Of a stretch of 64,000 nt of DNA, positions 3,153 to 54,075 are shown piece after piece; position 1 is the stretch's first letter; each line of letters opens with the position of its first letter. The DNA is taken from contig JAIPJP010000002.1 of NCBI GenBank assembly GCA_021734105.1, positions 582 through 64,581 of the forward strand. The letters are read 5' to 3'. This stretch comes from Candidatus Woesearchaeota archaeon (GTDB taxonomy: Archaea; Nanobdellota; Nanobdellia; Woesearchaeales; SKGA01). Under the pieces are notes generated by a model. It did not search any database. It saw only the letters and a program-made list of their open reading frames with translations, and was not told where the DNA came from. Position numbers and translations under genes: made by a program.

Positions 3153-3153
3153 A

Positions 3154-25615: not shown

Positions 25616-27472
25616 TTGATTAGGGTGGGTAACACGATGAATGTACATATAATGAGGCGAAGCATAGCTTTTTTTATTGCAACTCTTGTGCTGCTTTTTG
25701 CAGTTCAAGGAGCTCTAGCTGCAGAAGACCGCTCATTTACCGTTGTTAACTCTAAAGATTGGCAAGATTTATTTTTAGGAACAATATATGCTTCAGCAAC
25801 AAATTCAGATATTATCTTTTTTACCAACCTTGCAGATACACAACTCAAGACAAAAATGATGACGCTTGATGATTCCATTATGGTTTTTGAATCAAAAAAT
25901 AATCCTGTCGTCAAAAATTATCCTTCTCTGCTTAAAGTTAATGGCTATAATGACTATGACTCCATTTTTTATGATTCATTTCACGATTTGCAAGAAATTA
26001 TGGTTGATGATTTAGGAAACGAAATAGAGGGCTATTTTGTTTTTGAAGCATCCTTTGGAATGAACCCTGTTGCAGCAACACCTTACATTGTTAAAAAAAA
26101 TTATTTTCCTCTTTTTTTAGATGAACAAAGTAAGCGTTTTATTAAATCAACAACGAATAATGAAGAAACATTTATTGTCGGGCGTGTACCTATACGTTTT
26201 GCACAAGATTTGCAAGGAACACGCATAGATGGTTTTTCTTATGAATCATTAGAAACAGTGACTAATTTAGTTATAGATGAATTTCCTGATTCTGAATGGG
26301 GATTGCTTACACGTATAGATCTTGTTGACTTAGAATCCATTAAAAAACCTCTTCCAGTTCTTGTTTATTATGGGGATGAATATATAGATACATTAGCTAA
26401 TTTAGTTAAGCAAACAGATATTTCAAATTTTGAAGTAATCGGCGGTCCAACAGTTGATATCGCGCGAACATTAGAAATTCGTTCACAACGAAACCTCAAC
26501 TTTATGTTAAAATATGGTCGACGGGTGACAAACTATCCAGGTTATACAAACGAAGTACTTGATTTAGATTCTGTACGATTCGCTTACCCTGTAGAATTAT
26601 TAGATATTGTTAATGCGACCTACTATGAAGCAATGGGCATTTTAGCAATTACCTATGAAAATCAAGGAAATGTAGATTTACTTCACTTTTCAAACTTAGA
26701 ATTTGCAGGTTCAGCACTTTCCGATGTCATGACGCATTTTATTCTAGAGCAAGAACAAAAAACAATTCCTTTTCAAATACTTCCCGAAACAGAAAAGTTT
26801 GATTTAACAGTAACTACTCGATATGGAGAATCCATTCCTTTAAAATTTGAAATTGGATCAGATAAAGATACGCTTTTTTATCAAGAAGAGGTAGCTGTTA
26901 TTTCAGATTATCAAGAAACAGCAGAGATAGAGTATGTTTCCTCAATTTTTGATACGACTACAGGAGAACTAGAACTTGTTTATAACAATCCAACAGCAAA
27001 GCCAGTGCATATTTATGCTGAACTTATTGTTTCTAATGCCGATGTAGTATCATCCCCTGTCATTACCATTCAACCTGGCGAAAAAGAAGACTTGGTTGTT
27101 GCAACACCATTTATTTCAGATGAATTCATTGTTGGGCAAACTATAGATGTTATTACTTATTATGGTCACCGAGATACGCTTTTAAGTCAAACAAATAGTT
27201 TTGTAGTGAAAGCAAAAGGACCTTTTAGTGCGCTTACTGGTTGGGTAACGCTTGATTATGATAATAAACCTGTTGGCGCGAGCGTGACTACATTACTTAT
27301 CTTAGCAATCATTGCAGGCATTATATTCTTTATTTTGAAACGAAGAAAACAAGATACTGCTCCTAAAAAACCAACAAAATCGCTAAAATCATCAACAAAA
27401 CGTTCTTTACCTAAAAAAAAGTCTGCGAATAAGTCATCAAAGAAATCAACAAGAAAGTCTTCGCGCAAATAA
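25616..27472 (+). CDS. Membrane-anchored surface protein P1: signal peptide, large ectodomain, C-terminal TM helix, Lys/Ser-rich basic tail
   Basis: Signal peptide RRSIAFFIATLVLLFAVQGALAAED. C-terminal TM LLILAIIAGIIFFIL followed by KRRKQDTAPKKPTKSLKSSTKRS... N-terminal block AEDRSFTVVNSKDWQDL resembles that of the 52348 protein. Confidence 0.6.
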   Translation: MIRVGNTMNVHIMRRSIAFFIATLVLLFAVQGALAAEDRSFTVVNSKDWQDLFLGTIYASATNSDIIFFTNLADTQLKTKMMTLDDSIMVFESKNNPVVKNYPSLLKVNGYNDYDSIFYDSFHDLQEIMVDDLGNEIEGYFVFEASFGMNPVAATPYIVKKNYFPLFLDEQSKRFIKSTTNNEETFIVGRVPIRFAQDLQGTRIDGFSYESLETVTNLVIDEFPDSEWGLLTRIDLVDLESIKKPLPVLVYYGDEYIDTLANLVKQTDISNFEVIGGPTVDIARTLEIRSQRNLNFMLKYGRRVTNYPGYTNEVLDLDSVRFAYPVELLDIVNATYYEAMGILAITYENQGNVDLLHFSNLEFAGSALSDVMTHFILEQEQKTIPFQILPETEKFDLTVTTRYGESIPLKFEIGSDKDTLFYQEEVAVISDYQETAEIEYVSSIFDTTTGELELVYNNPTAKPVHIYAELIVSNADVVSSPVITIQPGEKEDLVVATPFISDEFIVGQTIDVITYYGHRDTLLSQTNSFVVKAKGPFSALTGWVTLDYDNKPVGASVTTLLILAIIAGIIFFILKRRKQDTAPKKPTKSLKSSTKRSLPKKKSANKSSKKSTRKSSRK

Positions 27473-27666
27473 TTTTTTTTCTTTTTCTTACTGTTTAACT
27501 AATTTATTTCTTTGTAACATATTTAACCATTATTTAATTAGGTTCTGTTGCTAGCGTGCTAACTTGAACAGTGTAATGGATTTTTGATGATTTTATTTAT
27601 GTATGTTTCTTTTTTTGTCCGTATTCATTGATGACAACAAAGAATTTCTCTGTGTTCTTAAGCGTT

Positions 27667-27681
27667 AAATTTATAAATGAA
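27667..27681 (+). promoter_or_regulatory. TTTATAAATGA promoter motif about 190 nt upstream of the giant ORF. A second TATA-like TTTATAAT sits at ~27851, only ~10 nt before the ATG.
   Basis: Exact 11-mer recurrence. Implies either a long 5' leader or a misplaced start. Confidence 0.35.
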
Positions 27682-27868
27682 GACCATCACAGTAATAGTA
27701 ATTAACTTTTGTGGGAAGTAGTTATTGGAAGGGTGTGGATGTAATTTTCTTCTAAGACTTTACCACGACAAAATATAGCGAGAGCTATGTGCAAAATTCC
27801 TGTTTAGAGGTGGGTGTACAATTAATAGCGTCACACGCAAGTATAGTGTATTTATAATAGTCTTTTTC

Positions 27869-30800
27869 ATGCTTTTTCTAGCTACGGCGACAGTCTTTTC
27901 TTTTACAGAACAAACATCCTCTGAGACTCTTTCTGTACATTTTCCACAACTTTCTGAGCGTACTCTTGAAATAACTTCTCAGGCAAGCAACTACACTATA
28001 GAAAACCTTACTCGAAACCCCATAGTGTTTGGAAAACCAGTCAGTTGGGAACTTCTTCTTTCTGATGGTGTTCAATTATTTAACGTTGAATATACTACGC
28101 CTCCCGTAGTTGTAGCATCCACACAAACTAATACTGCAACGACCTGGCAAAAAGAATTAACTTTTAGTACTAATTTCACCGAAGGTTATGCTAATATTTC
28201 TTATGAGGATGTTCTCCCGCATTTAACAAACTTTACTATTACCCCTCCTATTAGCTATGCAATAGGTTATAATAATGCAATTAGTTTTACACTTCCACAA
28301 TTAGTGTTAGAAGAAACAATTCTTTTACAAGCATCTTTTTTAGATACTAATAACTCAATTTTTAATACTACAAACACTTCGCCTTTGATTAACATAAATA
28401 CAAGCCACACCAATCAAACAGTTGTTGTTAACCACACCTTTCCAACCCCACAAGAAACACTTAAAACTCAACAAGCAAAAAGTAAGCATGGCAACTTTGC
28501 TTTAACTCTGGCTAAAGGTCAAATCAAAAAAATAGCTATGGCTGATGATTTTTTCCTAACTGTAGAACTAGAAAATATCACTCAACCAGAGAATACAACA
28601 ATTGATATTGAACTACCTAAACCAGTTCATAAAAATATACATCTTTATCTTTGGTATGAAACACCAACTGGTGATTTTAAATCAATTCCTTACATCTTTT
28701 CTAAAAATAGAAAAACACTCACTTTACATTTAGCGGACTTAGCACTCGCACCAAGAGCAGGCGCAATGAAATTTAGACTCAAAGTTGGCCTTTCTGACTA
28801 TGCTGTTTCTGTGAATAAAAAATCTGCACAAGAAGTAGATGCAGTTATTGATTCAAAACTAGTAGTATTTGAAACGGCATTTGCAGATGTACAATCATTT
28901 TCCATTGTTGATCCAGAAAACTTGCCAGAAGTTCCACAACAAGCAGGCGAGTTTACTCACAAACTTCTCAAATTCACGTTAGAAAATCTCACGCAACCAA
29001 ACGTTACTATTAACTTAACATTTGATGATTTACCTGAAGATTTCCAACTATGGAAATTTAATGCAAACACAGGCAACTGGTACACTTTCCCTTACACACA
29101 ACTTGACGCAAATACGCTGCAAATTACTCTTGTTGATGGAGGACTAGGGGATGATGACGGAATTGTTAATGGAATAATTGTTGATGACTTGGGTATCACC
29201 TTGGGCTGGCAAAACGATAGCTTTGACTGGCGAATTGCATTTAACGTTACTGCAACATCGGGAAGCCTAGTTAATTATTCAACACTAGTACTTCTTAATA
29301 ACACAGTTTTTAATTTTAGCAACGCGCAAGACGATTTAGCAGACCTTCGAATAGCTTACTACAATGCAACAGCAGACACGGAAACGCTCGTTGCTCATTG
29401 GGTGGAAAACTACGATCAAAACTTTAGCTCAGGAAGCACTGCTGCACGTGTATGGTTTAAAGCACTCTACTTGGCAAACAATACTAACACCACCTTCTTT
29501 GTCTATTATGGAAACCCATCAGCAAGCTCAACTGCAAACGGAAGCGACGTATTTCTTTATTTTGATGACTTTGAAAACGGCATCGGATTTGATACAGGAG
29601 AATTATCTTTAGTACAAAACACTAGTTCAGCAAAAACAGGAACCTATGGAATTTCAGGAGATGGAACTGAAACGTATGATCAAGCATTTAATTCAGGTGT
29701 AAACAGTGGACAAGATATTGTTGTTGAGTCATGGGTGAAAAGTTGGGATTGTGATAAATCTCAAGACACTTCTCTTGCAGGTGTCATGGTTGGCCATCCA
29801 ACAGTAGGAGTGGACCAAGATGGCTATCAAGCATATCTTGATGAACGAGGAAGTCCTTATTTAGGAATTAGACAAGATTATGACAACGGAGATGTTATAG
29901 CAAGTGCAACATCCCCTATAACAACATTTGACACGTGGTATTTTCATAGCTTTACTTGGACAACAGCTAATGAACTTATTTTCAAATTGTATGATGAAGA
30001 CAGATCATTACTGCAAACAATTTCTGCAACAGATGCAACATATACAGATGGAGAATTTGGAATTGGCGCTTGGGGATGTGCGAACTGGGACGAATTTAGA
30101 ATGAGACCATACACTGCAACAGAACCAACCATAACATTTTATTCGGGAAGCGATTTTGTAGGTATAGCAAACATATCTATAGATAGACCAGTTAACGAGT
30201 CAAATCAAACACGTATACAATCATTTACTATGAATGGAACACTTGTTTGTTCTCGAGGACAATCATGCGGAAATGTTAGTACTTATTTTCAATATTATAC
30301 AACGGCAGCACCAACACAAAGCTGGTTTGAAACATCCTATACTGATTTTAATGATTCTGATTTTGAAAATACTTATAATATATCCTCATCACAAAACGGA
30401 TTTATTTCTTTAGATGTAGTTAATTCAGGTCATGAATGGTGGAATGTTGACTGGTCAAATAGAATGCCGCTAAAGATTTCAAATGTAACAGCGAATGCAA
30501 CAGCAATTCCTGTAAAACTTATTATTAATTCTTCAATGGTCGGTACTTCTTTTGACTGGACTACTGATTATAACTCGTCACGTTTTATTTGGATGAATGA
30601 AACAAGCGGTCTAGCGCAATCAGCAGATTACTGGATTGAAGAATGGAATACAGGTGCTCAAAATGCAACTATTTGGGTAGAAATTCCTTATCTTGAAGAA
30701 AATACGAATACCTCACTATATTTGTATTATGGTAATGATGCAGTCACAACACTTTCAGATGTGGATTCAGTATTTTTATTCTATGATGACTTTAGCGACG

Positions 30801-48800: not shown

Positions 48801-50518
48801 ACGATACAACGATTGTTAGCGGACTTTCCAATAGTTCCTCTTGGGAATACGCGCTAGATAGAGGAACATATACTTGGAATTGCCTTGCAGAAGACAATGC
48901 CTCGCAAGCAACAGGAGGAGTGAATAAAACAATATATGTGAATGAACCAGCAAACGCAACATACACAGGATTTAGTGGGAATACTACGGCATTTAACACC
49001 TATCCAACACCTGAAGCAATACTTGGCGCAACACTTGACGCACCTGGCGATGCACAAATAGAATGGAACGGTGTTGTGAATGCAAGTAATCAAGACTTCG
49101 ATAGTTTTGTTACGCTCGGACAAAATGTGGTGAGTGTAGATATTGGTGGATTAGATACTAGTTTTAACAGCAGTGCAAATGTCACGCTTCGAAATATTTC
49201 TTGGGCGTATCCAGTAGTTTATCGCAATGGTGTGCTTTGTACTGGTTGTGACGTACTGAGTTATGCAAATGATGTATTGGTCTTTAACGTCACAGGATTT
49301 TCATCTTATACAACCGGCGAAGGAACAAACCTGTCTATTTGGGATACCAGTGATAGTGTGGAAGTCTTTAACGACGAACAAAATATCTTTTATGCAAATT
49401 ACACCAACATTACAGATGGTAGTGCAATTACTGGTCTTGACGTATATTGCGAGTTCACAGAAAATAGCACGGGAACTTGGAGCGCACTTAATAATATGAC
49501 TTACAATATAACAAGTGGTCTTTATGAATATAATAAAACACTCCATGATGGTATTTCACAATTCAATGTAAGTTGTTATAATGATCAAAACTATGCAAAC
49601 CTATCGCTTGTTGATAGCGTGAATATCACTCGACGACCAACAAGAGAACTCCATATCCTTAACATTACGTACTCATCATCATCGCCAATTGAAGGAACAA
49701 GCGTCACAGTATATGTGAACGTTTCAAATACAGGAAATGAATCAGCAACAAATTTCACACTCGATGTAAATGTTTCCTTATGGAATGGAACAGCTGGCGT
49801 TTTTGATGAAACATTATCTCTTGTTAATCAAAATATTGCAGATGCAACAACAACACTGTTTGAACTTTCTTGGACGGCTCAACCAGGAACCTATATTTTT
49901 GATGCTTATGTTGATAGCGAGTTTAACGTAACAGAACTCAATGAAACCAATAACACGTTTAGTACTAATGTAACAGTTGATGCATGGGCATATCAACACG
50001 GAGAAATAAACCATACTGTTGTTTTAGGGGCGGGTACAAATGAAGTCTTGAACTGGTCAGATGACTCTGAAGACGGTTATGTCTTTTTTTATGATTATGA
50101 TTCTTCTATTAATCTTCTTGCGCTTGAAGCATTAGGAACAGGAAGCAATGATTTTATAGAAGCAGATGAGGCGCTAGGCATGACTGGATTTAGTGATTCT
50201 ATAGCTGAACTCTTTGATGCAGACGGTAATGATATAGCAGATAGCACAACAAGTGTTACGGTCTTTGGCACCACCTATAATGATGTGCCAACAACGCTCT
50301 CAACGAACTCCTCCTCTTCATTTACTACAGGAATAATGTGGGATGCAACAGGAGGGGGCGAATATGACGGTAGTCAAGACCTTGTCATCGTTGCAATAGT
50401 AAGCGCTACTACTGCCGGCGCTTATGGCACTTATGATTATGAGGTTCGCGTGCCTGCTTTACTTAAATCATGGAAAGGCAGCAACGACTTTTTTGCTTAC
50501 GCAACAGAATTCACCTAA
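27869..50518 (+). CDS. Giant multi-domain cell-surface glycoprotein (7,549 aa) with DUF2341-like + LamG-like modules, Ig-like tandem repeats and a CARDB-like domain
   Basis: Uninterrupted 22.6-kb ORF. Six modules at aa ~450, 860, 1220, 2070, 3070 and 5230 carry the DUF2341-type signature W.YR..I.I.N...L.DYQ....N.....CSD(V/I)RF.Y.N......E....E.....A.(F/I)WVK(V/I)P.......(L/I)Y.YYGN. Most are followed by a LamG/concanavalin-like segment (e.g. GIGAWGCANWDEFRMRPYT). A CARDB-like domain sits near the C-terminus (VSNTGNESATNFTLDV...LNETNNTFS). There are hundreds of N-x-S/T sequons. No C-terminal TM helix. Confidence 0.85.
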   Translation: MLFLATATVFSFTEQTSSETLSVHFPQLSERTLEITSQASNYTIENLTRNPIVFGKPVSWELLLSDGVQLFNVEYTTPPVVVASTQTNTATTWQKELTFSTNFTEGYANISYEDVLPHLTNFTITPPISYAIGYNNAISFTLPQLVLEETILLQASFLDTNNSIFNTTNTSPLININTSHTNQTVVVNHTFPTPQETLKTQQAKSKHGNFALTLAKGQIKKIAMADDFFLTVELENITQPENTTIDIELPKPVHKNIHLYLWYETPTGDFKSIPYIFSKNRKTLTLHLADLALAPRAGAMKFRLKVGLSDYAVSVNKKSAQEVDAVIDSKLVVFETAFADVQSFSIVDPENLPEVPQQAGEFTHKLLKFTLENLTQPNVTINLTFDDLPEDFQLWKFNANTGNWYTFPYTQLDANTLQITLVDGGLGDDDGIVNGIIVDDLGITLGWQNDSFDWRIAFNVTATSGSLVNYSTLVLLNNTVFNFSNAQDDLADLRIAYYNATADTETLVAHWVENYDQNFSSGSTAARVWFKALYLANNTNTTFFVYYGNPSASSTANGSDVFLYFDDFENGIGFDTGELSLVQNTSSAKTGTYGISGDGTETYDQAFNSGVNSGQDIVVESWVKSWDCDKSQDTSLAGVMVGHPTVGVDQDGYQAYLDERGSPYLGIRQDYDNGDVIASATSPITTFDTWYFHSFTWTTANELIFKLYDEDRSLLQTISATDATYTDGEFGIGAWGCANWDEFRMRPYTATEPTITFYSGSDFVGIANISIDRPVNESNQTRIQSFTMNGTLVCSRGQSCGNVSTYFQYYTTAAPTQSWFETSYTDFNDSDFENTYNISSSQNGFISLDVVNSGHEWWNVDWSNRMPLKISNVTANATAIPVKLIINSSMVGTSFDWTTDYNSSRFIWMNETSGLAQSADYWIEEWNTGAQNATIWVEIPYLEENTNTSLYLYYGNDAVTTLSDVDSVFLFYDDFSDGNDDGWTVRSGTWVVENNESYYQTTTLTTYLISEAGDSSWEDYTVETSINMTGFGGSTFFAGLLYRYQDTNNHYAVILDDRADDSIWLRQWIEGSYATEDQEWNDVNVDLNVFLPLRVDIFTNDAGTHTNRIHFDNTIKEYNYSAFGAGNIGLIAHNTQPRYDFVSVRKFTPSQLVVTNYSSEELNVSSNGEYYSNIYDFETEDVTFEKIYWTSSVPGQTSFSMHTRSSVGLAGAWYSADWPYQKEINISNTAGPLYEYQVFVQANLSTEYAAGKIQNNCSDVRFIYLNQTSLEQQEVNFFTDACDLTNEDIADFWVKVPFLKNGTITKLYLYYGNNSLPSASNIANTFTYTTNRTVGYVVSNMSARNGIRVTSLEDNNEIAVGSVGHQLNEFDNELVVGGSLTIGSAIKAKNLIQAEGNGDADDMIVPLSWAATHFVYEGMRSDNDTYCFVSPWGTAEVNLSETGVLQWTDNVTAAGVCYQADFASNTATTVDSSIPILAYHHGRDISQPPRDSWPFYPASTGPLYHPSRSNAIYIGVGENITTLTCYGSDGTSQTRSNVAAFGYTDCTSLSNGNSGSGAAAKIVSDYPIGAVQQADHDGTESTVFVPRKEMGTVFGAYHDAEYIALVSPYSGFDCDLYDSSGFDSTATFSTSSTEGVAKACFGCGSDATYITGPWKVVCEQPVWIYYEEDSDGDETNLFGYKQMRQYVYPAPTVAVELDELNYTYVSGNPDDFYQWSPWFLETDNTSISSPDNRYLQYRVTLSTTNSTKSPILDDVTLEYKIIANAWKNMKPSGTSFTANSPYSSLLNQTVNVTPSLAVTPQEVGTYLVRLLANSSSLSETFISENRSITINLQPAFSSFTTSSNLVARDGEITLSALFLDDVASPIKYYNVSFYDETGNGSRYFIGWAITDETGYATTTYTIPSDATYGTHILNVSYNGSTTNYINKAERTRTIKVSSSPVVHDVFTTPANFGYGFNISIQANITDGVGLDTVLVNITNESGQTETHEMTLLDGFYVYNFSQPWLKQNYNYTIIANNTDSVTTIATGNTFGLVVQSYVDIKTEKDAYRNNELVELSLTKGQWPEMEGWLYRLPVNITSEASLTDYQVQINLDSSNFRFSESNNGSDIRFTYYNTTTGNETNISHWTESYNATAQSATIWVNVPEISDTVQTKINLYYGNDNVNSSSNGTNTFIYFEDFDTTPFDWYNSPAGSGVVLDSTRAYSGTYSGHKIGGNDYRGAIEDVGTTFGRDVIMEFWVNRNAAFGGGQVDRIGFIEGTGDGYGWAFDHNADDILTDVRTNYGPATLNPTSTPDVMDEWVFGQFVVKASGVVEAYRYVDGTLLGSMATTSSTHNAFNRVYIFGGYDYWVDDIRIRKTSDTAFLTTSFGTEEVDALGLINEENTKFKGDLKMIVQRWTGSAWQNLNPPVIEDDEQILDTYEVVDLASIWDAAGAWNTTTRAPGTYRIYAIMEDSSNNLLENIDGTYIVGSANFTIKESEVRLVNLTYENEFEQGLLAYETGDVIDWINATVQAFENIAYDANATLSLLDSSKSSVGWGPQSETKLCGDLLENQTCEQQWNNASNGYIIPTDAASGTYTFYWDVLSTSENGQEYSNNSISFAVHNIPQTANTSLSQTRVYKPNSTIFNVTFTNLWNENLSGVSANINCPAFSGFTCQNLTPTTFSSIENETDFTIQFNVSANESVPSNDYNLTVELNYTNPGGETKSWNATANTLLEVRLAGILVITDYLHPITVTRNNNANFYAYMNNSGDTIATNAWLNYTFPTGWTVTTGNQDESFASIPINGVVWNNITAQPGINALLGSRTIRLDSNADDGRNDFKQYTVTVYANTSLSLTKNLSIVNRGEHIGLTGTLTYDNGTPVTNRWIYFYDETENTYLGANQTNALGQATLAYYINSSSTLSLHTLNASFNGTTSLYLRPTATTTSIDVHEKPQFSNVLISPNLSGYGSNVYINSTVTDIDVFDEIDTVWAIITYPDASTQRVNLTNVPPDDFYYIFNETWELGNYAVTLYANDTTGAQNNSNSYSFSVNASLLLSMQTAQNSYSQNEEVNLSDGGLTSWWNTDWPYRIAITAENTAENLTDYQLFIRRNLGTAYTNGNIQADCSDVRFTYYNTTAQTEQEITFYTDYCSLTSINNADFWAKIPFMQNATNTTVYLYYGNNQATDASNLTATFTYDSPKTIGYVVGEDHVSNGLEIMSYVASNEVNVGASTYTLGEFGTQTVSSGLSLATEIQAKDAVQIEGAGADDDIIAPVSWASTEFIFGGMRSNDRFCMLSPWGSASVTIYDGGSSDWSGTVTSSGTCQTVDISNGNAARVVSDIPILVVKTSTNSRDAYTFYPATTDDIYGGSASNAVFIASGPSVTAVSCIGADATSGSTSIPANDEYDCGADVTTGDSGSGTAVKVVSDYKIGAIQQADHDGTESTVLVPTKEFGTVFGSGLDAQYIAVVSLTQNNNCSIYTSGGLFDWDISTGTSALSQACFGCNSDSVFVSGPWKMECEQPVWAYYEDDNDHETNMLSYKQLRQYVHPEPSLTYSSEQSRGSKVYNQQTNTHKGYVLLTVQENSTGSWNHVATISNDTSTLRSIPATGLDLATIWNSVSWNTGTIAAGTYRAYGALQDDQGTTLTNYDSSEITGDWEFILEAPDLHLAIDDLRIYDVTETAQANWRIYTGDLIGSGLNNSHTLYKDDIYRIEVDVENIGSTTWTINDTTINYSNFNQNWTINETDYIWYSTLATIANRRADTSKLSGNFTDTITWDISSNQGTVAAGDVATFFFIINMSEEDTKGIRFRIEHPDFDISDYSTLESIIFTVNAPALYNDIYNFTDTKVIRGDNTTLYARWDKTIGEANFTYNVVTPVGYATYQNTTPANTKNWSNYTINTGSTWFLGNHSAKIIVEDQSGNTNTSLPYLTFGVWGHAQPTSIQLNTSNIAVGDNVSIQCRITDATNGNSVIAGYNVSFTNGTDTLGWNTTSATGWAVFNYHDLTAGSEQVGCFITESAADFYTIGALNSTMTTLLTTEEVLPTYSSLSGPTTAHKGDVVGLNSYWQDNFGLDFANLSTNATGTFANASRLEISGLADWANFSYTIPTSMTPGTLGWKVHGVDTSGNVNTTYVSTIAVWGYSEIGSSTLSPASVQEGNPTTMGCRIVDEQSLSALSNYNVTFYYQNKSNPGYIYLGYNLTNTTGWANYNFILPNASTYDIKCNITDDATQQYNSSTPFFAVKELNVVSSADVYPPLIINGNYGINDTELYRGQCFMVYGEWNESINESWIQYNNTPTNITEFNGTAPFTANWTNISICTNNTWVPGEYTVQLFAKDQEGNLNNTLSTLSFEVKARANLSWIGPIGDLNRTTINLSCQVHDFDTGDPISGYTVRFYDGDEGSTLGNVATNASGVATLEYDYTIINSGNPVNVGPDALSCQIFVSAGYELATSFVEETVYFYGDLAANITTPVSGAIMHTGVAESLVVNAEDEFGNTVRDINGNVATIDATWKNSTQTTLATGASTTWSIPATYATGVETITVNITEPYYRWNTDSVNVNIWGYADVTISTPPAGTYANNTPLMLTCRVTNSATGQGINTYPIAFYNDSTLLTTTPANATGYATYTINTNTMQEGDRVLRCEIDNNAPLLYNKSSAYQSNVSVIVDASAPVIMYTASSDANNTYNRNWIYARVLLTEPNLDTLYLNWNGTNETFTASAGNEYWTNKTGLGDGNYTYLAWANDTAGNTGQSLLRKVIVDTTSPVVTIYSPQEQPYNATTLLINYTVTDANVDACWYNLDNNATTNSTLTGCQLDNLTSLSEGNHSIIIYANDTAGNLGQTAINFSVDTTFPTVSISHPVNTSSYFDDNVQDLNFSTGDDIALDSCWYTLDNGAEAPIPGCANTSISGLTNENHTLSVFVNDTAGNVNNETIWFIINLNKLIPLPVAPENNSYLNNQTIYVNATTNINATSCNYSIDDGVPSSMTNSTNLDWYALTPALTETFHNLTFYCWNGSANIQTEYRYFTIDVTAPVVSYELPTDTDGLGVGRNWTLINISTNEPTNVGILEWYNGATYQNYTMNKASNTSYWINMSGLADDTYSYRVFANDSADNFGNTTSRTIIVATTIPYIMLTSPVNTTEYTSNLLWLNATASKPISTWTFELNEENYTFTPDIIFPAELFENNLTVYATDADNNTGKITIAFTVNNTVTWTDTFQTYAGLTAAENLAVDTNASVDFCWPVLRNETFSAQNNMEACWHYRQPVSVTSTTTLIDYQTVLHLNISSLVSSSKANADCSDLRFTYYNETTNQDELIDYFLDDCSNTDDVQVWLKLPLINSSSKVHVYYGNPRAEDKSNGTAIFELFEPFNSVTVGNWGSNAANWASSNGISYPTTSGGSSQITSTTATSTQYAIELKLAGNSTSGSAGRFFFGRPAGANKYMGLYIDPPGNRVRLFNNAYTDYTINASEQNKYSLVADFVNNNYTLHVNNSVSPQIELSTSATGSIPNPIFYSYYTQGLLLDYYALRKYSPNHPTVGSMGGEETPITNATFRSKLISPNPFGAWVNFIASGNFPAGTDVTFQLRNATDANICGNLTYAQVSAGYEPCMNAAFFTDVYLWAQLETTATLSTPYLFNWTIEWNTSMTDNIVPQVTVTSPLAITQNQSTSVLLQATVIDNVNMSHVFANVSWDAGVNWENIELIKQGTSNTYNATFTNTSLIGVYNVAFFANDSRNNINDTETGNFTIRDSVGPTINSHNASPSPTAYELNITILANVTDNLGVGDVFVEIENTNYTMQPLGGQVYSYEFNTTDYAAGTYNYYINANDTSNPTNWAIEQTGSFTIAQATSNISLFINGTQGNYETNQDYQINLSAIITKPSPTTDYIAIFVNGTLSANASGTAENITSFTPGTYNISASYLGNENYTSASVWYTLTVNDTEAPIINNYNATPNLTAYRNEITIFANITDNILVDTVLVEIVGVNYSMNGPPGDIYNYTFNTTDYAAGFYNYTIWVNDTANNSATKQTGNFTIIQVTSILALYLNGTQGNENATTADIINITSVLTLPAGTSDFVQIYREGLLIANSSSPAVNISQQPLGYHNITAEFLGNVNFTGTSVMWFLNITDGTPPSINSHNATPNSTIYGNNITLYANVTDNVAVDTVYFEINGVNQSTTPAGDIYSYEFNTTDYAVGFYTYRVLANDSSDNFATPQIGNFTIFPATSELHLYLNGTEDNVSFDEDLLINLTADLSVPVLGENVWILLDGVSVANSSSPAVNISAHQPGVYNITAVYAGNENYSGTRVTWFMTINDTTNPNVTALLPTTGFVINDSMPILISANITDNVNVSKVFANVSWNGMYNYIELTSTNNLTYNYTFTNTSWVGNYGVLFFANDSVNNINNTETTWFNVTFSDDQAPNITSFNATPNVTSYGNNITIYANVTDNVDVSDVFVEFDGTNYSMTNDSLPGVGGSIYGYRFNTSNYAVNIYSFRIVANDTNKTHLLTANFTQLTTGDALTGLLSYCELRENSTNNWSSPIKMSYDSETTTYSATLPSPKQYWFQITCVDTKQETNLFIIGDVDTSKPKLIDLPTNELFIEDLYEPVNDTNSPTTITYQTSNGNFVLTTTEGILEEFGVTDTLALFFTIRNVSSKPVAVDLALPFALPKGLHFYLWKEVNGETIAVPYEISSDSRSLTLILQDGVIDEDGLVNGVIVDPLQLMLPTYDFFVSKTNTTSTHVTVAEREFFVTTPKGALESVALVDPLNLPNLPGTPNSFTHKLVRFTADTLGAEALDVYLTYDDLPIEFELWKFNSQTIAWYEFPYERIDEKTIMITLYDGGLGDDDGEVNGIIVDDVGIISLGTELRIGDLSDSQTVYSNEQNYFYANYTNASDGSAINDTIGYCEFTENSTGSWSALVNMTYNYENGLYELNRTITTGTHMFNVSCFSTDVRYQNITLNETFNITLFVDEAPVIEIQLPAANVVTTVQNVSFSCGFTDTLNLANITLYLTNATNESFGVNDTTIVSGLSNSSSWEYALDRGTYTWNCLAEDNASQATGGVNKTIYVNEPANATYTGFSGNTTAFNTYPTPEAILGATLDAPGDAQIEWNGVVNASNQDFDSFVTLGQNVVSVDIGGLDTSFNSSANVTLRNISWAYPVVYRNGVLCTGCDVLSYANDVLVFNVTGFSSYTTGEGTNLSIWDTSDSVEVFNDEQNIFYANYTNITDGSAITGLDVYCEFTENSTGTWSALNNMTYNITSGLYEYNKTLHDGISQFNVSCYNDQNYANLSLVDSVNITRRPTRELHILNITYSSSSPIEGTSVTVYVNVSNTGNESATNFTLDVNVSLWNGTAGVFDETLSLVNQNIADATTTLFELSWTAQPGTYIFDAYVDSEFNVTELNETNNTFSTNVTVDAWAYQHGEINHTVVLGAGTNEVLNWSDDSEDGYVFFYDYDSSINLLALEALGTGSNDFIEADEALGMTGFSDSIAELFDADGNDIADSTTSVTVFGTTYNDVPTTLSTNSSSSFTTGIMWDATGGGEYDGSQDLVIVAIVSATTAGAYGTYDYEVRVPALLKSWKGSNDFFAYATEFT

Positions 50519-50670: not shown

Positions 50671-51450
50671 ATGGTCGATATTGATTACGATACACGGGGC
50701 ATAAGTCCTATCGTAATTCATGATTTTGTAAAAAATAACAACCAAAATGAGGTGTGTGAGACAATGAAAAAAATTGCAATTTTAATGGTCGTTGCTGTTC
50801 TAGCAATTGGAATGGTAATGGCAGCAGAACCTGGTCAAATAGACTCAGTTACTTCGGTAGACTTAGGAGAATATACTTCTAACGCAGGCCAAAGTATAAA
50901 TCTTCAATCAGGTAATGTAACAGATGCAGACCTTTCAGCAAGAGTATCCACTTTTGTCTGGGCAGGTCTTGTTGGTGACGTAGGCGGTGACATCGTATTA
51001 GGAACCGGAAATGGCGCAGGACAAATTCTTTACAACTGGTCAGCACAAGGTGCAGTTGTCTATGCAAGTGAAGCAGCAGCAATTGATTGGACTGATGGTA
51101 ACATAATCCCTCTTGCGGTAGGAAATATTCCACCACAGGTTAATACAGGTGCAGCAGATGATTATACCAATACTTTTACTGGAAATGAAGCTATGACTGC
51201 TTCAGCGATTTATGATACGGTAGCACTAGTGCCTTTTGCAACAACCTGGGACAATACTACGACTGCTATATGGAAAACGTATTCATTTGAAGATGATGCA
51301 GCTGATGAACCTATTTGGGCTGGCGAAGTGCAAACAGGCGGTACGTCATTTAATGGAAGTGTAGTTGATTACCAAATGATTCTTCCGGAAGACGGTCGTT
51401 CTAACGATGTAAGTCTAACTCAGTACTTCTTGTGGGCAGAATTAGTCTAA
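50671..51450 (+). CDS. Small secreted protein S1 (probable start at the Met at ~50764: MKKIAILMVVAVLAIGMVMAAEPG). Paralog of the next gene.
   Basis: Signal peptide. Conserved blocks shared with S2: TTWDNTTTAIWKTYSF...IWAGEVQTGG...VVDYQMILPEDG vs TTTWQDGTQGSLRTYAL...IWAGKAQGNVQG...TVDYQLLVPAFG. Confidence 0.55.
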   Translation: MVDIDYDTRGISPIVIHDFVKNNNQNEVCETMKKIAILMVVAVLAIGMVMAAEPGQIDSVTSVDLGEYTSNAGQSINLQSGNVTDADLSARVSTFVWAGLVGDVGGDIVLGTGNGAGQILYNWSAQGAVVYASEAAAIDWTDGNIIPLAVGNIPPQVNTGAADDYTNTFTGNEAMTASAIYDTVALVPFATTWDNTTTAIWKTYSFEDDAADEPIWAGEVQTGGTSFNGSVVDYQMILPEDGRSNDVSLTQYFLWAELV

Positions 51451-51492
51451 GCCTTACGGCTTTTTTTCTTTTTTTTCTTTTTTTTATTCTCT
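51451..51492 (+). terminator. Oligo-T terminator-like tract after S1 (TTTTTTTCTTTTTTTTCTTTTTTTTATTCTC)
   Basis: Three consecutive T7–T8 runs directly after the stop codon. Confidence 0.4.
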
Positions 51493-51546
51493 CATTCTTT
51501 GCATTAAGTAAAAAGTTATTTAAATAGAAAAACTCCAATAACTCGT

Positions 51547-52239
51547 ATGAATGAGGCGCAAACCATGAACCGACCTACCATCCTTTTACTAGTGGCTTTG
51601 TTTTTTATTACAGGTTTAGCCTCGCTAGCTTTAGCAGAGCCTACAGGCGCAACGATTACGCCGGGTGTCTCTGAAACAACGGTCCTACCAGCAGCACAAG
51701 CACTTAATATTCAAGGAGGTTATGTTACCTACGTTGATGTTCGAGGAGGAATTGTGACAACGCGATGGGGAGGCTTTTTTGGAAACATCACAGGAGAAGC
51801 AAGGCTCGGGGATGGCAGCGGCAATTACTATTATATATGGACGGTAACTGATCCAACAAACGCAGTTGTTTATGTTTCAACAGACTCCATTACGAGCTGG
51901 GACTTTACCGATTTTCGACCAGCAAACGCAGGCGATATGCCTGCATATTTACAAGCATCAGTAACTGATAATTTTGCCTCAACATTCACGCAAGCTGAAG
52001 CATTTGATAGTGCAAGTCTATTTATTCCTGTTACACCTTACACGACCACGTGGCAAGACGGCACGCAAGGAAGCTTACGCACCTACGCACTGTATAATTC
52101 AGCAGATAATGCAGTAATTTGGGCAGGAAAAGCGCAAGGAAATGTACAAGGCTTCCAACCAGGAAAAACCGTTGATTATCAACTCCTCGTTCCAGCGTTT
52201 GGCACCGAAACCTATAATTTCTATTTAGAACTGCCTTAA
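51547..52239 (+). CDS. Small secreted protein S2 (230 aa), paralog of S1
   Basis: Signal peptide MNRPTILLLVALFFITGLASLALAEP. See S1 for the shared blocks. Confidence 0.55.
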   Translation: MNEAQTMNRPTILLLVALFFITGLASLALAEPTGATITPGVSETTVLPAAQALNIQGGYVTYVDVRGGIVTTRWGGFFGNITGEARLGDGSGNYYYIWTVTDPTNAVVYVSTDSITSWDFTDFRPANAGDMPAYLQASVTDNFASTFTQAEAFDSASLFIPVTPYTTTWQDGTQGSLRTYALYNSADNAVIWAGKAQGNVQGFQPGKTVDYQLLVPAFGTETYNFYLELP

Positions 52240-52295
52240 TGTTTATTCTATGCAAGCTTAGGTTATTAATTGTAACAGCACTTTCTAGCGAAATG

Positions 52296-52306
52296 TTTAT
52301 AAATCC
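52296..52306 (+). promoter_or_regulatory. TATA-like TTTATAAAT about 45 nt upstream of the 52348 start, with a GGGGAG Shine-Dalgarno 8–10 nt before the ATG
   Basis: Sequence motif plus spacing. Confidence 0.35.
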
Positions 52307-52347
52307 TTAGCAAGGTTAGATAGTATATTAAAGGGGAGTTAACTAGT

Positions 52348-54075
52348 ATGCAACAGAACACTATAACATTGTTTTTACGAGTCTTTCTTTTGGCTTTACT
52401 ACTCGTTTTTTCCACCGGTATTGTCAGCGCAGAAGACGTTACTGTAATTAATTCGGAAGACTGGGTGGATGTGTATAGCGTCATGCTTAAATCAGCTCTT
52501 GAAGGACGACGAGCACTCTTTGTAAATGGGGACTCGGCAACAGGATTTGCAAACATCATAAACCCTTTAGACACTTTACAAGTATACACTTCTGTTGATA
52601 CGCCTTATATTGATCAACTAGATAAACAATTAACAAGTATAGGTTATGATGTACGTACGGCATACGCAAACACAAATTTTAACTACGATTTAGACCCTGG
52701 AACAGGAAATTACATTCTTATTTCGCTTGATAATCCTCGTATTGCAGCATCCATCGCGCCACTTGCAGTAAAGCAAAATGCGTGGGTGTTTATCGTTGAT
52801 AAAGAAAATGCAGCAGATATTGCAAAAGCAACAAAAGGAGCTACATCTGTTATCGCTGTAGGAAACTTTGGGCGAGACGTACTAAAAAAAATACAACCTC
52901 GATTTACTACATGGATTAACACCGGCGATTTATATGCCGATAGTCAAGAAATAGCAACGTTATTAGGTGTTAAAAAAACAGTTATTTTAACAGACGGATC
53001 ATTTATTGAAACAGAATTTTTCGCCTCAAGTAATCCAGTACTTCTCTCCGGACCAACACGACTTTTTAGCAAAACATTTGCATTTCTTGAAGCAAACGAG
53101 GTAAGTTCAGTTGTTATTGTAGGTAATCAACTCGCAGCAATAGGCGAGCAAATAAGAGATAAAAGCAACAAAGAAATCAGCGTGTTTATTAAATTTGGAC
53201 AAGGAGACACGATGAAATCAGCAAATATTTACGCACTCTCTATGTTTCCACTACCCGTTTCACGATTAGGACTTACCGTGCAACAAGCAATCTATAATCC
53301 CGCAACACAAGAACTCATTGCAACGTTTAAGAACACTGGAAATATCGGTGTATACGAACTTTCCACCATTGTTATTAAAAATGGCGAGGAAGAGCTTGCA
53401 AGCGTTTCTTTACCTGATGTAACGTATATTGCAGGAGGAGAATTATTACCTGTTATTTTCCCTGTAGCATTGCCCATAGAACTTATTACGCCGCAAACAA
53501 GTGTAGAATTTTATACTTCTTATGGTATAACGCCCACAGGACTTGATAGATTTCTTACAGAAGATAATATTTTAGGTAATCCATTCACCCTGCCTTTAAC
53601 TTTACAAACAATTGCTGATGATGGAACGCTACTTTACTTGGTTGATTCGTCCTACTACAAAGGAATTGATCGTGTAGGTGTAGAATTACACAACCCAACA
53701 GACATTGATGCATACGTTTCTGTAAAAGTAAATGAAATTATGGTAAATGGTCTTCCTAAAACCTTGTACAAACAAGGAAAAGTAAAAGCAGGACAAACAA
53801 CTATTTTGTACTTACCTGCAAAACTTGATAGAATTGATTTACAAGAAAATGAAGAACTAGCAATTGTAGTAACGTATGGTAAAGATGAGTCTATGCTCTT
53901 AAAAACTATTTCTGCAAAACAACCATTTAAAGTAGTCTCGGGAGGAAGAATAACAGGTCTTGTTACAGGAATCGGAGGAGGCTCTGCGGCAATAGGCTGG
54001 GGAATTGTAATGATTGTACTTTTAGGAAGCCTTTATGTTGCATATTTCTTCGTTCGAAAAAAGAATAATTCTTAA
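52348..54075 (+). CDS. Membrane-anchored surface protein P2 (signal peptide, ectodomain, C-terminal TM plus short basic tail). Distant paralog of P1 (25616).
   Basis: Signal peptide FLRVFLLALLLVFSTGIVSAED. N-terminal block AEDVTVINSEDWVDV matches P1 AEDRSFTVVNSKDWQDL. C-terminus GGGSAAIGWGIVMIVLLGSLYVAYFFVRKKNNS. Confidence 0.6.
   Translation: MQQNTITLFLRVFLLALLLVFSTGIVSAEDVTVINSEDWVDVYSVMLKSALEGRRALFVNGDSATGFANIINPLDTLQVYTSVDTPYIDQLDKQLTSIGYDVRTAYANTNFNYDLDPGTGNYILISLDNPRIAASIAPLAVKQNAWVFIVDKENAADIAKATKGATSVIAVGNFGRDVLKKIQPRFTTWINTGDLYADSQEIATLLGVKKTVILTDGSFIETEFFASSNPVLLSGPTRLFSKTFAFLEANEVSSVVIVGNQLAAIGEQIRDKSNKEISVFIKFGQGDTMKSANIYALSMFPLPVSRLGLTVQQAIYNPATQELIATFKNTGNIGVYELSTIVIKNGEEELASVSLPDVTYIAGGELLPVIFPVALPIELITPQTSVEFYTSYGITPTGLDRFLTEDNILGNPFTLPLTLQTIADDGTLLYLVDSSYYKGIDRVGVELHNPTDIDAYVSVKVNEIMVNGLPKTLYKQGKVKAGQTTILYLPAKLDRIDLQENEELAIVVTYGKDESMLLKTISAKQPFKVVSGGRITGLVTGIGGGSAAIGWGIVMIVLLGSLYVAYFFVRKKNNS

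What the first reader, a model, noticed from the sequence alone, without database searches (positions are those of the whole stretch)
25616..54075. 28-kb cell-surface locus: giant gene flanked by paralogous membrane-anchored proteins and followed by two small secreted paralogs
The giant ORF is bracketed by two proteins of identical architecture, P1 at 25616–27472 and P2 at 52348–54075. Both have a signal peptide, an N-terminal AED..V.NS.DW.D block, a C-terminal TM helix and a basic tail. Two paralogous ~200-aa secreted proteins, S1 and S2, sit between the giant gene and P2. All five genes are co-oriented and secreted. The arrangement suggests a co-functioning envelope system in which P1/P2 act as membrane anchors or receptors for the anchor-less giant protein, rather than a chance neighbourhood.
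Basis: inference. Interest (0 to 1): 0.65.

Follow-up and report, generated by a model that had tools for sequence, protein, structure and literature searches.

The report
Conserved DPANN archaeal surface-protein gene cluster
This is a cell-surface gene set conserved across several lineages of tiny symbiotic (DPANN) archaea, in which a giant anchor-less adhesin ends in the same previously undescribed domain that forms two small secreted proteins, next to two membrane-anchored proteins related to bacterial cell-wall-binding modules; it probably shows how these archaea mount adhesins on their surface.

Summary
P1 and P2 are full-length paralogs (hhalign probability 100%, E 3e-63). S1 and S2 are paralogs (BLASTP E 2e-29). 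The 7,549-aa DUF2341 gene is real and has no transmembrane segment.

The window is from a Candidatus Woesearchaeota (DPANN) genome. The neighbourhood is conserved:
- An S gene lies next to the P2 homolog in 20 of 23 species-level genomes. The other three contigs break off at P2.
- A P1 homolog follows in about 9 loci, and a giant DUF2341 gene is adjacent in 9.
- The same set recurs in Aenigmatarchaeota and in a complete Nanohaloarchaeota genome.

1. The giant's last ~198 aa are homologous to S1/S2 (hhalign 97%, E 7e-11). This domain ends 589 representative proteins, always at the extreme C-terminus.
2. The N-terminal half of P1/P2 is a triple CWB2-like module (profile hit to C. difficile Cwp6, E 9.5e-10), followed by two beta-sandwiches and a TM anchor.
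3. S1-type→P1-like and S2-type→P2 gene pairs recur.

Best model, inferred and not shown: P1/P2 form a membrane-anchored platform, and the S-type domain is the module that retains S1/S2 and the giant adhesin on it. I found no Pfam or NCBIfam family, no structural match and no description in the papers searched.

The parts
25637..27472 (+). P1: signal peptide, CWB2-like triple alpha/beta module, two beta-sandwich domains, TM helix (nt ~27266-27346), K/S-rich basic tail. The ORF is open from TTG 25616.
   Evidence: ORF and hydrophobic segments; full-length homology to the P2 family, E 3e-63; the profile containing P1 and P2 N-termini hits the Cwp6 CWB2 region.
27821..50518 (+). Giant secreted protein (7,549 aa from ATG 27869; probable true start ATT 27821). 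About six DUF2341 (LamG-like) units, many Ig-like domains, then a CARDB + S-like C-terminal cassette. No TM segment. 372 N-X-S/T sequons.
   Evidence: present as protein P0099 in the public collection.
34175..34420 (+). Best-scoring DUF2341 unit of the giant protein (aa 2103-2184). Other units lie near aa 450-560, 842-970, 1207-1326, 3050-3169 and 5262-5342.
   Evidence: Pfam; internal cross-matches of the 500-aa chunks.
49649..49963 (+). CARDB domain (aa 7261-7365) immediately before the C-terminal domain. The same CARDB-then-CTD cassette is seen in all six other CTD proteins scanned.
49922..50515 (+). C-terminal S-like domain (CTD) of the giant protein, aa 7352-7549, homologous to S1/S2.
   Evidence: hhalign 97.1%, E 7.4e-11, 170 columns; CTD HMM hits window S2, E 1.3e-5; it hits S proteins of L026 and L027 at 2e-9 to 3e-12; 589 representatives, domain ends within 4 aa of the C-terminus in 150 of 150.
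50764..51450 (+). S1: signal peptide, short T/S/G-rich linker, S domain (begins near the GGNVT-type motif and ends with the protein). The ORF is open from ATG 50671.
51547..52239 (+). S2: signal peptide, linker, S domain. AlphaFold2 gives a beta-rich core (mature aa ~40-201, mostly pLDDT 77-97) and a disordered N-terminal ~36 aa.
52348..54075 (+). P2: signal peptide (aa 1-27), CWB2-like triad (aa ~28-290, nt 52429-53217), two homologous beta-sandwich domains (aa ~300-532, nt 53245-53943), TM helix (aa 547-573, nt 53986-54066), short basic tail.
   Evidence: (AF2 pLDDT 85.9).
25587..25595 (+). TATA-like box of P1. Equivalent boxes lie at 27670-27678 (giant), 50626-50633 (S1), 51518-51526 (S2) and 52296-52304 (P2).
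   Evidence: sequence read directly; function inferred.
27473..27489 (+). T-run directly after P1 (TTTTTTTTCTTTTTCTT). A similar run follows S1 at ~51461-51485. These are candidate archaeal terminators.
   Evidence: sequence read directly; function inferred.

Best explanation
The locus is a lineage-wide DPANN cell-envelope module built from three protein types.

(1) P1 and P2 are type-I membrane proteins. The C-terminal helix sits in the cytoplasmic membrane, two Ig-like beta-sandwich domains form a stalk, and a membrane-distal triad of CWB2-like alpha/beta domains forms a platform.

(2) The S domain is a ~180-aa all-beta module without recognisable relatives. It occurs alone in S1 and S2. It also forms the strictly C-terminal domain of many large, anchor-less, adhesin-like proteins, here the 7,549-aa, sequon-rich DUF2341 protein.

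(3) Proposed mechanism: after Sec export, S-type domains dock non-covalently onto the P1/P2 platform, with cognate pairs S1-P1 and S2-P2, possibly co-assembling with each other. S1/S2 are the default occupants. The giant protein uses its own S-type domain to be held at the cell surface, where its LamG/Ig array reaches out to a host cell or substrate.

Shown: the domain architectures, the homologies, and the conserved co-location.

Inferred: export, physical S-P docking, and the adhesin role.
For: Homology:
- P1~P2 is full length.
- S1~S2.
- The giant CTD is homologous to the S family (cross-hits).
- The profile of the P family's N-terminal half hits the CWB2 region of C. difficile Cwp6 (PDB 5J72) at E 9.5e-10, spanning two repeats in register. 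CW_binding_2 is also the Pfam family hit by most P2 homologs (7 of 27, best 7.9e-5).
- AF2 shows three beta-alpha units, two beta-sandwiches and a TM helix. The two sandwiches are duplicates of each other (hhalign 97.4%).

The CTD behaves like a shared module. There are 589 representative proteins at E<=1e-3. In 150 of 150 top hits the domain ends within 4 aa of the C-terminus, in proteins from 130 to 7,549 aa long. Six scanned members have different passenger domains (LamG_3, DUF2341, MG2, Big) but always CARDB+CTD.

Co-location:
- P2-seeded sample: S lies next to P2 in 20 of 23 loci, and the other three contigs end at P2. P1 is adjacent in ~9 and a CTD giant in 9.
- CTD-seeded sample: P and/or S lie within 10 kb in 3 of 5 loci, including the complete Ca. 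Nanosalina genome.
- S-seeded metagenome sample: a P gene lies in 17 of 30 loci of at least 4 kb.
- S1-type→P1-like and S2-type→P2 pairs recur in three different arrangements.

Other points:
- The giant has no membrane anchor and 49 sequons per 1000 aa, against 1.7-3.3 in P1/P2.
- The closest relative has a 1,433-aa CTD protein in the same position, 60% identical over the last ~1,100 aa. The C-terminal part is thus conserved while the passenger is expandable.
Against: - No direct evidence of binding. No complex prediction could be run.
- The only experimentally known ligand of CWB2 triads is a cell-wall polysaccharide, not a protein (established knowledge of C. difficile Cwp/SlpA).
- The association is not obligatory. 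Four P2 loci with 10 kb on both sides lack a giant gene (L001, L004, L006, L008). Two CTD giants have no P or S gene within reach (L025, L028). Lone S genes sit among housekeeping genes in L035, L046 and L079.
- The S domain also occurs at the N-terminus of ~690-aa proteins that have their own TM helices. It is therefore a general interaction module rather than purely a C-terminal anchor, and S-S co-assembly could replace S-P docking.
- The five genes appear to be separately transcribed.
- The fold of the S domain has no match that would suggest a binding mode.
Confidence: 0.45

Rival explanations
1. S and P together are the S-layer. S2-P2 and S1-P1 heterodimers tile into a paracrystalline lattice through the CWB2 triads, like the low- and high-molecular-weight halves of C. 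difficile SlpA. The lattice is tied to the membrane by the P helix. CTD proteins such as the giant replace S at some lattice positions as S-layer-associated proteins. This overlaps with the best explanation but makes the stronger claim of a lattice.
For: - P2 is strongly conserved: 61 database clusters at 34-72% identity, nearly all ~530-630 aa. It sits among housekeeping genes.
- The S→P gene order recurs.
- P has CWB2-triad homology. In SlpA the CWB2 triad forms the lattice base (PMC8881574, from its abstract and my own knowledge).
- Signal peptide plus C-terminal TM plus basic tail is the classical architecture of archaeal S-layer glycoproteins (established knowledge).
Against: - P1/P2 have almost no N-glycosylation sequons (1.7-3.3 per 1000 aa), unlike typical archaeal S-layer glycoproteins.
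- There is no evidence of lattice formation or of high abundance.
- S has no detectable similarity to the SlpA LMW subunit or any S-layer protein.
- Lone S genes exist.
Confidence: 0.22
2. P1/P2 are glycan-binding receptors or adhesins in their own right. The CWB2 triad binds a polysaccharide, either a host cell-wall polymer or the cell's own glycans, including the many N-glycans of the giant protein. The S domain has an unrelated role. The genes cluster because all are envelope genes.
For: - The known ligand of CWB2 triads is an anionic cell-wall polysaccharide (established knowledge), and P has CWB2 homology.
- The giant carries 372 sequons.
- Some Woesearchaeota are suspected episymbionts of bacteria (PMC8204110).
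Against: - P2 is conserved at 35-70% identity across Woese-, Aenigmat- and Nanohaloarchaeota, which have very different presumed hosts. Host-recognition proteins usually diverge fast.
- This reading does not explain why the S-type domain is shared by S1/S2 and the giant, nor the S→P pairing.
Confidence: 0.15
3. S1/S2 polymerise into a surface fibre or stalk, like donor-strand-exchange 'threads' or bundling pili. The giant protein is incorporated at the tip through its S-type domain, and P1/P2 form the membrane base.
For: - S proteins are ~200 aa, Sec-exported and all-beta, with a conserved but poorly modelled N-terminal segment (pLDDT <50 for the first 36 residues).
- The giant carries the same domain at its C-terminus, as tip adhesins of chaperone-usher pili carry a pilin domain (analogy, from my own knowledge).
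Against: - The conserved N-terminal motif (GGNVT.(L/V)N) is also present at the start of the giant's CTD and of the TM-anchored S-domain proteins. There is thus no tip-versus-shaft asymmetry.
- No class III (pilin) signal peptide is present. One of 36 S homologs gives a weak Pilin_N match (E 0.1).
- No similarity to TasA, AbpA or thread subunits was found.
- There is no assembly ATPase or usher in the locus.
Confidence: 0.08
4. There is no functional link. These are independent surface proteins that lie together by descent or shared regulation.
For: - Each gene has its own promoter.
- Gene order is shuffled between genomes and the giant gene is often absent.
- Lone S genes exist.
Against: - The same three families stay within a few kb of each other from Woesearchaeota to Nanohaloarchaeota, despite rearrangements and 25-45% protein identity.
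- The giant shares a domain with S.
- Cognate S→P pairs recur.
- For single-copy genes in ~1-Mb genomes, chance proximity within 10 kb would be about 2% (my estimate).
Confidence: 0.07

Closest known systems
Clostridioides difficile SlpA / Cwp family (CWB2-anchored S-layer and cell-wall proteins)
   Same: Three tandem CWB2-type alpha/beta domains form the surface-proximal platform of a family of paralogous surface proteins. The P-family profile matches the Cwp6 CWB2 region at E 9.5e-10. A small outer partner is encoded just upstream of the CWB2 part, like SlpA LMW before HMW.
   Different: P proteins are archaeal and have their own C-terminal TM anchor plus an Ig-like stalk, so the triad is membrane-distal. 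No cell wall or PSII-type polymer is known in DPANN. Individual P sequences stay below Pfam's CWB2 threshold (14.8 vs 24.9 bits). The variable 'cargo' proteins share the S-type domain, not the CWB2 module.
Sulfolobales SlaA/SlaB two-component S-layer
   Same: A membrane-anchored stalk protein with a C-terminal TM helix and beta-sandwich domains holds an anchor-less outer protein. The genes are adjacent.
   Different: No sequence similarity was detected. The outer components here are small (S1/S2) or giant modular adhesins that share a docking-type domain. P has a CWB2-like head.
Cohesin-dockerin display (cellulosomes, also present in some archaea)
   Same: The logic is the same: many different secreted proteins carry one common terminal module that plugs into an anchored receptor.
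   Different: No cohesin or dockerin match in Pfam. The S domain is ~180 aa and all-beta, not a ~70-aa Ca-binding dockerin. Binding has not been shown.
Type IX secretion C-terminal domain (Bacteroidota CTD)
   Same: A strictly C-terminal beta-rich domain is shared by many large surface proteins with varied passengers.
   Different: The T9SS CTD is an ~80-aa outer-membrane secretion signal that is cleaved off. DPANN archaea have no outer membrane or T9SS. The only NCBIfam hit (PorU-related, 22 bits vs a 450-bit cutoff) lies on the CARDB part. Free-standing S paralogs have no T9SS counterpart.
Giant 'SPEARE' surface proteins of Nanohaloarchaeota (PMC10266531)
   Same: Very large DPANN surface proteins rich in Ig/LamG-type domains, proposed to mediate host contact.
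   Different: SPEARE proteins are described as membrane-anchored and contain a VirB4/TraG-like ATPase domain. The giant here has no TM segment and no ATPase match, and it ends in the CARDB+S-type cassette.
DUF2341 (MJ1470-type) adhesin-like proteins linked to archaeal type IV pili, and PilY1 (PMC4858521)
   Same: The giant contains about six DUF2341 units well above the Pfam threshold.
   Different: No pilin, assembly ATPase or platform gene lies in this locus. S1/S2 lack class III signal peptides.

Membership tests
CWB2 (Pfam PF04122, cell wall binding domain 2) - for P1/P2 | Sequence match to the family model above the curated threshold | tested here: not met
   Window P2 scores 14.8 bits against a cutoff of 24.9 (E 0.045). 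P1 gives no hit. 7 of 27 P2 homologs give sub-threshold hits, best E 7.9e-5.
CWB2 (Pfam PF04122) - for P1/P2 | Profile-level homology to a structurally defined CWB2 triad | tested here: met
   A profile of 28 P-family N-terminal halves hits PDB 5J72_A (Cwp6), residues 97-321, at E 9.5e-10. A second weaker stretch covers 331-433.
CWB2 (Pfam PF04122) - for P1/P2 | Three tandem ~90-aa alpha/beta (toprim-like) units | tested here: inconclusive
CWB2 (Pfam PF04122) - for P1/P2 | Binds a secondary cell-wall polysaccharide | not testable with these tools
   Needs biochemistry.
DUF2341 (PF10102) - for the giant protein | Match above the Pfam gathering score | tested here: met
   232.1 bits against a cutoff of 23.4 with five matched stretches in the first 4,000 aa, plus one more at 43.4 bits.
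CARDB (PF07705) - for the giant protein | Match above the Pfam gathering score | tested here: met
   42.7 bits against 22.7, at aa 7261-7365.
Archaeal S-layer protein | Forms a paracrystalline lattice and is a dominant envelope protein | not testable with these tools
   No expression or imaging data. Signal peptide plus C-terminal TM plus basic tail is compatible, but the sequon density of P1/P2 is low.
Archaeal type IV pilin (class III signal peptide) - for S1/S2 | Short charged N-terminus, a G/A at the -1 cleavage position, then a ~20-aa hydrophobic helix retained in the mature protein | tested here: not met
   The N-termini MKKIAILMVVAVLAIGMVMAAEP and MNRPTILLLVALFFITGLASLALAEP read as Sec-type peptides with an A-x-A-like end. 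Pilin_N matches 1 of 36 homologs at E 0.1.
T9SS C-terminal sorting domain - for the giant CTD | Match to the CTD models and presence of T9SS in a diderm cell | tested here: not met
   No Pfam or NCBIfam CTD match. The organism is an archaeon, as shown by GatD/GatE and TruD in the context.
SPEARE-type giant proteins of Nanohaloarchaeota | Membrane anchor and an internal VirB4/TraG-like ATPase domain (PMC10266531) | tested here: not met
   No TM segment. No ATPase family among the Pfam hits.
Cohesin/dockerin | Pfam cohesin or dockerin match | tested here: not met
   No such hits for P1, P2, S1, S2 or the giant. Type II cohesin structures appear only among insignificant Foldseek hits (TM 0.2, E>0.3).

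The most novel reading that the evidence does not exclude
The S-type domain and the CWB2-like P proteins constitute a previously unrecognised, DPANN-wide protein display or anchoring system. It would be an archaeal counterpart in logic to cohesin-dockerin or SLH/CWB2 anchoring, built on a new fold. Through it these ultra-small symbionts would mount interchangeable, rapidly expanding giant adhesins, and perhaps build their surface layer, making it the physical basis of host attachment.
Probability: 0.3. Interest if true: 0.8.

Novelty: new variant of a known kind. Interest (0 to 1): 0.62.

Why it matters
DPANN archaea depend on contact with host cells, yet how their often gigantic, anchor-less surface proteins are held on the cell is unknown. 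Most DPANN-specific protein families are unannotated membrane or extracellular proteins (PMC8204110).

This locus gives three concrete, testable handles:
- a conserved pair of membrane-anchored CWB2-like proteins;
- a new ~180-aa domain family (589 representative clusters at 50% identity) that marks the C-terminus of many large adhesin-like proteins and also exists as small free proteins;
- their conserved co-location from Woesearchaeota to Nanohaloarchaeota, the latter including a complete genome.

If the docking model is right, it identifies the receptor and the 'address tag' of DPANN surface display. It would also allow the displayed proteome to be predicted from sequence. CWB2-type modules would be extended from Firmicutes cell walls to wall-less archaea.

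Tried and rejected
- Foldseek of the whole P2 model returned only tandem Ig-like matches (transglutaminase beta-barrels, RbmA). It said nothing about the N-terminal half. The CWB2 link came from a sequence profile instead.
- Pfam and NCBIfam give no family for S1, S2 or the CTD. The 'New_glue' hits in 8 of 36 S homologs are taken as compositional (my judgement; the hit positions were not inspected).
- PDB sequence search with the whole P2 and S profiles found only noise.
- Pairwise BLASTP of the giant CTD against S1 and S2 was not significant (E 1-2). Only profiles show the homology.
- The word-indexed protein search with the CTD returned nothing, not even the giant protein itself. The exhaustive HMMER search was needed.
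- Pilin, T9SS, cohesin-dockerin and SPEARE readings were considered and rejected (see the membership tests).
- The donor-strand 'tip versus shaft' idea lost support. The conserved N-terminal GGNVT-type motif is also present at the start of the giant's CTD.
- Literature searches found no description of this module. The term sets were DUF2341+archaea, Woesearchaeota+S-layer, DPANN+giant/adhesin, DPANN+MoxR/DUF58, CWB2+archaea and Nanosalina VS9-1.
- A MoxR-DUF58-vWA operon and an X-Y-Z operon that accompany the cluster elsewhere have no homolog in this window.

Full report
**What is there**

Region 25.6-54.1 kb of the window carries five co-oriented ORFs:
- P1 (25616/25637-27472)
- a 7,549-aa ORF (27869-50518)
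- S1 (50671/50764-51450)
- S2 (51547-52239)
- P2 (52348-54075)

The flanks are archaeal housekeeping genes. Upstream lie GatD, GatE and an LPG_synthase_TM-family membrane protein. Downstream lie TruD, adenylate kinase, an intein-containing XPD helicase and a nitroreductase. P2 is identical to NCBI protein K9M74_00580 of a Candidatus Woesearchaeota archaeon, on a 66-kb contig. The window is therefore from a DPANN archaeon with ~35% G+C.

**Checking the observation**

P1 and P2 both have a hydrophobic N-terminal segment and the motif AED..V.NS.DW.D. Both have one C-terminal hydrophobic helix and a basic tail.

| Comparison | Method | Result |
|---|---|---|
| P1 vs P2 | BLASTP | E 1e-7 |
| P1 family vs P2 family | hhalign | probability 100%, E 3e-63, 536 columns (end to end) |
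| S1 vs S2 | BLASTP | 30% identity, E 2e-29 |

The giant ORF has about six DUF2341 units, Ig-like domains and a CARDB domain. It has no membrane-anchor-like segment.

From its first ATG the giant's signal peptide is truncated. The frame is open upstream, and an ATT at 27821 behind GAGGTG would give a normal signal peptide like those of homologs. This start is an inference.

Each gene has its own TATA-like box, and T-runs follow P1 and S1. The five genes therefore look like separate transcription units rather than an operon.

**Is the neighbourhood conserved?** I sampled it from three independent starting points.

(a) Starting from P2: a scan of one genome per GTDB species returned 23 loci.
- An S-family gene lies next to the P2 homolog in 20 of them. 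In the other three the contig ends at P2.
- A P1 homolog lies directly downstream of P2 in about nine.
- A giant DUF2341 gene is adjacent, on either side, in nine.

(b) Starting from the giant's C-terminal domain, five loci were examined.
- The complete Ca. Nanosalina sp. VS9-1 genome (Nanohaloarchaeota) has a 1,104-aa CTD protein immediately followed by a P1-like gene (E 8e-67). An S gene lies nearby (E 2e-54).
- Locus L026 has P2, P1, a 6,971-aa giant and S.
- L027 has two giants followed by two S genes.
- Two loci have neither P nor S within reach.

(c) Starting from S in metagenomes: 17 of 30 loci of at least 4 kb have a P gene in the flank, and seven also have a CTD protein.

The closest relative (72% P2 identity) has the order MoxR operon, CTD protein, S1, S2, P2, TruD, Adk, XPD. 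This is colinear with the window downstream.

Gene order is otherwise shuffled. The bracketing of the giant gene by P1 and P2 is peculiar to this genome. The association is strong but not obligatory. Four P2 loci with full flanks lack a giant gene. Lone S genes also occur among housekeeping genes.

**New link 1: the giant ends in an S-type domain**

The last ~198 residues of the giant resemble S1/S2. Pairwise BLASTP does not show this. A 32-sequence S profile against a 6-sequence profile of giant C-termini gives hhalign probability 97.1%, E 7.4e-11, over 170 columns. The CTD HMM independently hits S proteins in the window and in other loci.

An exhaustive HMMER search of 1.84 billion representatives with the CTD found 589 proteins at E<=1e-3 and 527 at E<=1e-10. 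In all 150 best hits the domain ends within 4 residues of the C-terminus. Host proteins range from 130 to 7,549 aa, 65 of them at least 1,000 aa long, and many are contig-truncated fragments.

Named members come from Aenigmatarchaeota and Nanohaloarchaeota. Six members scanned all have CARDB directly before the CTD, but different passengers: LamG_3, DUF2341, MG2 and Big domains.

The 1,433-aa positional homolog in the closest relative is 60% identical to the last ~1,100 aa of the giant. The C-terminal part is thus conserved and the passenger is expandable.

The S domain also occurs at the N-terminus of ~690-aa proteins that have their own C-terminal TM helices, encoded next to P2 in some metagenomic loci.

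**New link 2: what P is**

AlphaFold2 of P2 (pLDDT 85.9) gives the following layout:
- a signal helix
- three beta-alpha units (aa ~30-285)
- two beta-sandwiches (aa ~300-530)
- a C-terminal TM helix

The two sandwiches are duplicates of each other (hhalign 97.4%).

A profile of 28 P1/P2 N-terminal halves hits the CWB2 region of C. difficile Cwp6 (PDB 5J72, residues 97-321) at E 9.5e-10. No other natural protein scores better than E 0.6. CW_binding_2 is also the Pfam family matched by the most P2 homologs, always below threshold.

P1/P2 are therefore archaeal, TM-anchored proteins with a membrane-distal CWB2-like triad on an Ig-like stalk.

**New link 3: cognate pairs**

In three differently arranged loci (L012/L042, L041, L049) an S2-type gene directly precedes P2. 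An S1-type gene directly precedes the second, P1-like paralog. This suggests an ancestral S→P two-gene unit that was duplicated.

**The S domain itself**

AlphaFold2 of S2 gives a confident all-beta core (mostly pLDDT 77-97 for residues ~40-201) after a disordered ~36-residue linker. Foldseek finds no relative in PDB or BFVD. Pfam, NCBIfam and PDB sequence profiles find none either. More sensitive fold libraries were unavailable.

**How it most likely works (inference)**

The giant protein has no anchor and carries 372 N-X-S/T sequons, 49 per 1000 aa against 1.7-3.3 in P1/P2. It is built of lectin-like and Ig-like modules, so it looks like a glycosylated adhesin. This rests on the established view of DUF2341/LamG proteins (PMC4858521, PMC10266531).

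A domain that always terminates many different large secreted proteins, and that also exists as small free paralogs, behaves like a shared attachment or assembly module. The partners most consistently encoded beside it are the TM-anchored P proteins.

I therefore propose that S-type domains dock onto, or co-assemble on, the P1/P2 platform. S1/S2 would be the default occupants. The giant adhesin would be retained through its own S-type domain. Confidence is 0.45.

**Rivals**
- S+P heterodimers form the S-layer itself, as in SlpA (0.22; compatible with docking).
- The CWB2 triad binds glycans of a host or of the giant, and S is unrelated (0.15).
- S1/S2 form a fibre with the giant at its tip (0.08). 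This is weakened because the conserved N-terminal motif is shared by S and the CTD.
- There is no functional link (0.07). This is contradicted by conservation across phylum-level distances.

**Known or new**

I found no description of this module in the literature searched. Castelle et al. (PMC8204110) note only that DPANN-specific families are largely unannotated membrane or extracellular proteins.

The logic resembles CWB2/SLH anchoring, SlaA/SlaB and cohesin-dockerin display. The docking-type domain, however, is a new family, and the CWB2-like module sits on a TM-anchored archaeal protein. I rate it a new variant of a known kind, with interest 0.62.

**Caveats**
- All functional statements are inferred from sequence.
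- The taxonomic labels of several TPA records ('uncultured Methanosarcinales') probably do not reflect the true lineage and were not verified.
- Co-location frequencies depend on contig lengths and on my HMM thresholds.

Noticed in passing
window 25394-25520 (- strand): A tRNA-Arg(CCU) gene with a 53-nt intron in the D-loop (25448-25500), between the LPG_synthase-like gene and P1. ARAGORN and Rfam at gathering score find no tRNA in the whole 64-kb window. Rfam scores the 3' part at 28.8 bits against a cutoff of 29. ARAGORN calls tRNA-Arg(cct) once the intron is removed in silico.
   Followed up: yes
window 27821-27869: The giant gene probably starts at a non-AUG codon: ATT at 27821, 8 nt after GAGGTG. 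Only that start gives a complete signal peptide like those of homologs. The TATA-like box lies ~150 nt upstream, implying a long leader.
   Followed up: partly
window 56014-59406 (- strand): The XPD/Rad3-type helicase (DEAD_2, HBB, Helicase_C_2) is interrupted by an intein with a LAGLIDADG homing-endonuclease domain. The orthologs in L001-L003 and L089 are ~620-650 aa and lack the intein.
   Followed up: partly
L001, L002, L004, L008, L011, L014, L015, L018, L025, L026, L031, L040, L043, L089 (e.g. L089:1-3328): A MoxR-type AAA+ ATPase, DUF58 and membrane vWA (BatA-like) operon lies directly beside the S/P/CTD cluster in many DPANN genomes, including the closest relative. It has no homolog in this 64-kb window. 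It may be an assembly or chaperone system for these surface proteins.
   Followed up: partly
L004, L013, L014, L015, L021, L024:15504-21243, L025:1-5545, L026:2595-8240, L049, L061, L078: A second conserved operon often accompanies the cluster. It comprises X (~545 aa, N-terminal S-like segments), Y (~580 aa, CARDB) and Z (~780 aa, C-terminal TM), plus a ~145-aa protein. It is absent from the window.
   Followed up: partly
L066:1878-3944, L070:6081-8120, L071:2401-4470, L076:5955-8141: ~690-aa proteins with an S domain directly after the signal peptide and C-terminal TM helices plus a basic tail, encoded next to P2. The S domain is therefore not restricted to free proteins and C-termini.
   Followed up: partly
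L089:3838-8139 versus window 27869-50518: The closest relative has a 1,433-aa CTD protein at the position of the 7,549-aa giant. Only the last ~1,100 aa (60% identity) and a short N-terminal-proximal stretch are shared, so ~6,000 aa of DUF2341/Ig modules were gained or lost between close relatives.
   Followed up: yes
window 61287-63500 (- strand); L089:17265-19373: A ~700-aa transglutaminase-core protein is conserved in synteny ~7 kb downstream of P2. In bacteria, MoxR-DUF58-transglutaminase sets accompany surface proteins, for example the Bifidobacterium PFNA cluster (PMC8430577). Any link to this locus was not examined.
   Followed up: no
L035:9857-10525, L046:9932-10624, L079:9896-10570: Solitary S-family genes sit among housekeeping genes (for example next to an FtsZ-like gene), with no P homolog within 10 kb.
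   Followed up: partly
L003, L008, L010, L011, L015, L017, L019, L021 (record titles): Several TPA assemblies carrying this DPANN-type cluster are titled 'uncultured Methanosarcinales archaeon', and L023 is titled 'Methanomicrobia archaeon'. L003 shares the window's TruD-Adk-XPD synteny, so at least that label is probably a placeholder or a binning error.
   Followed up: no
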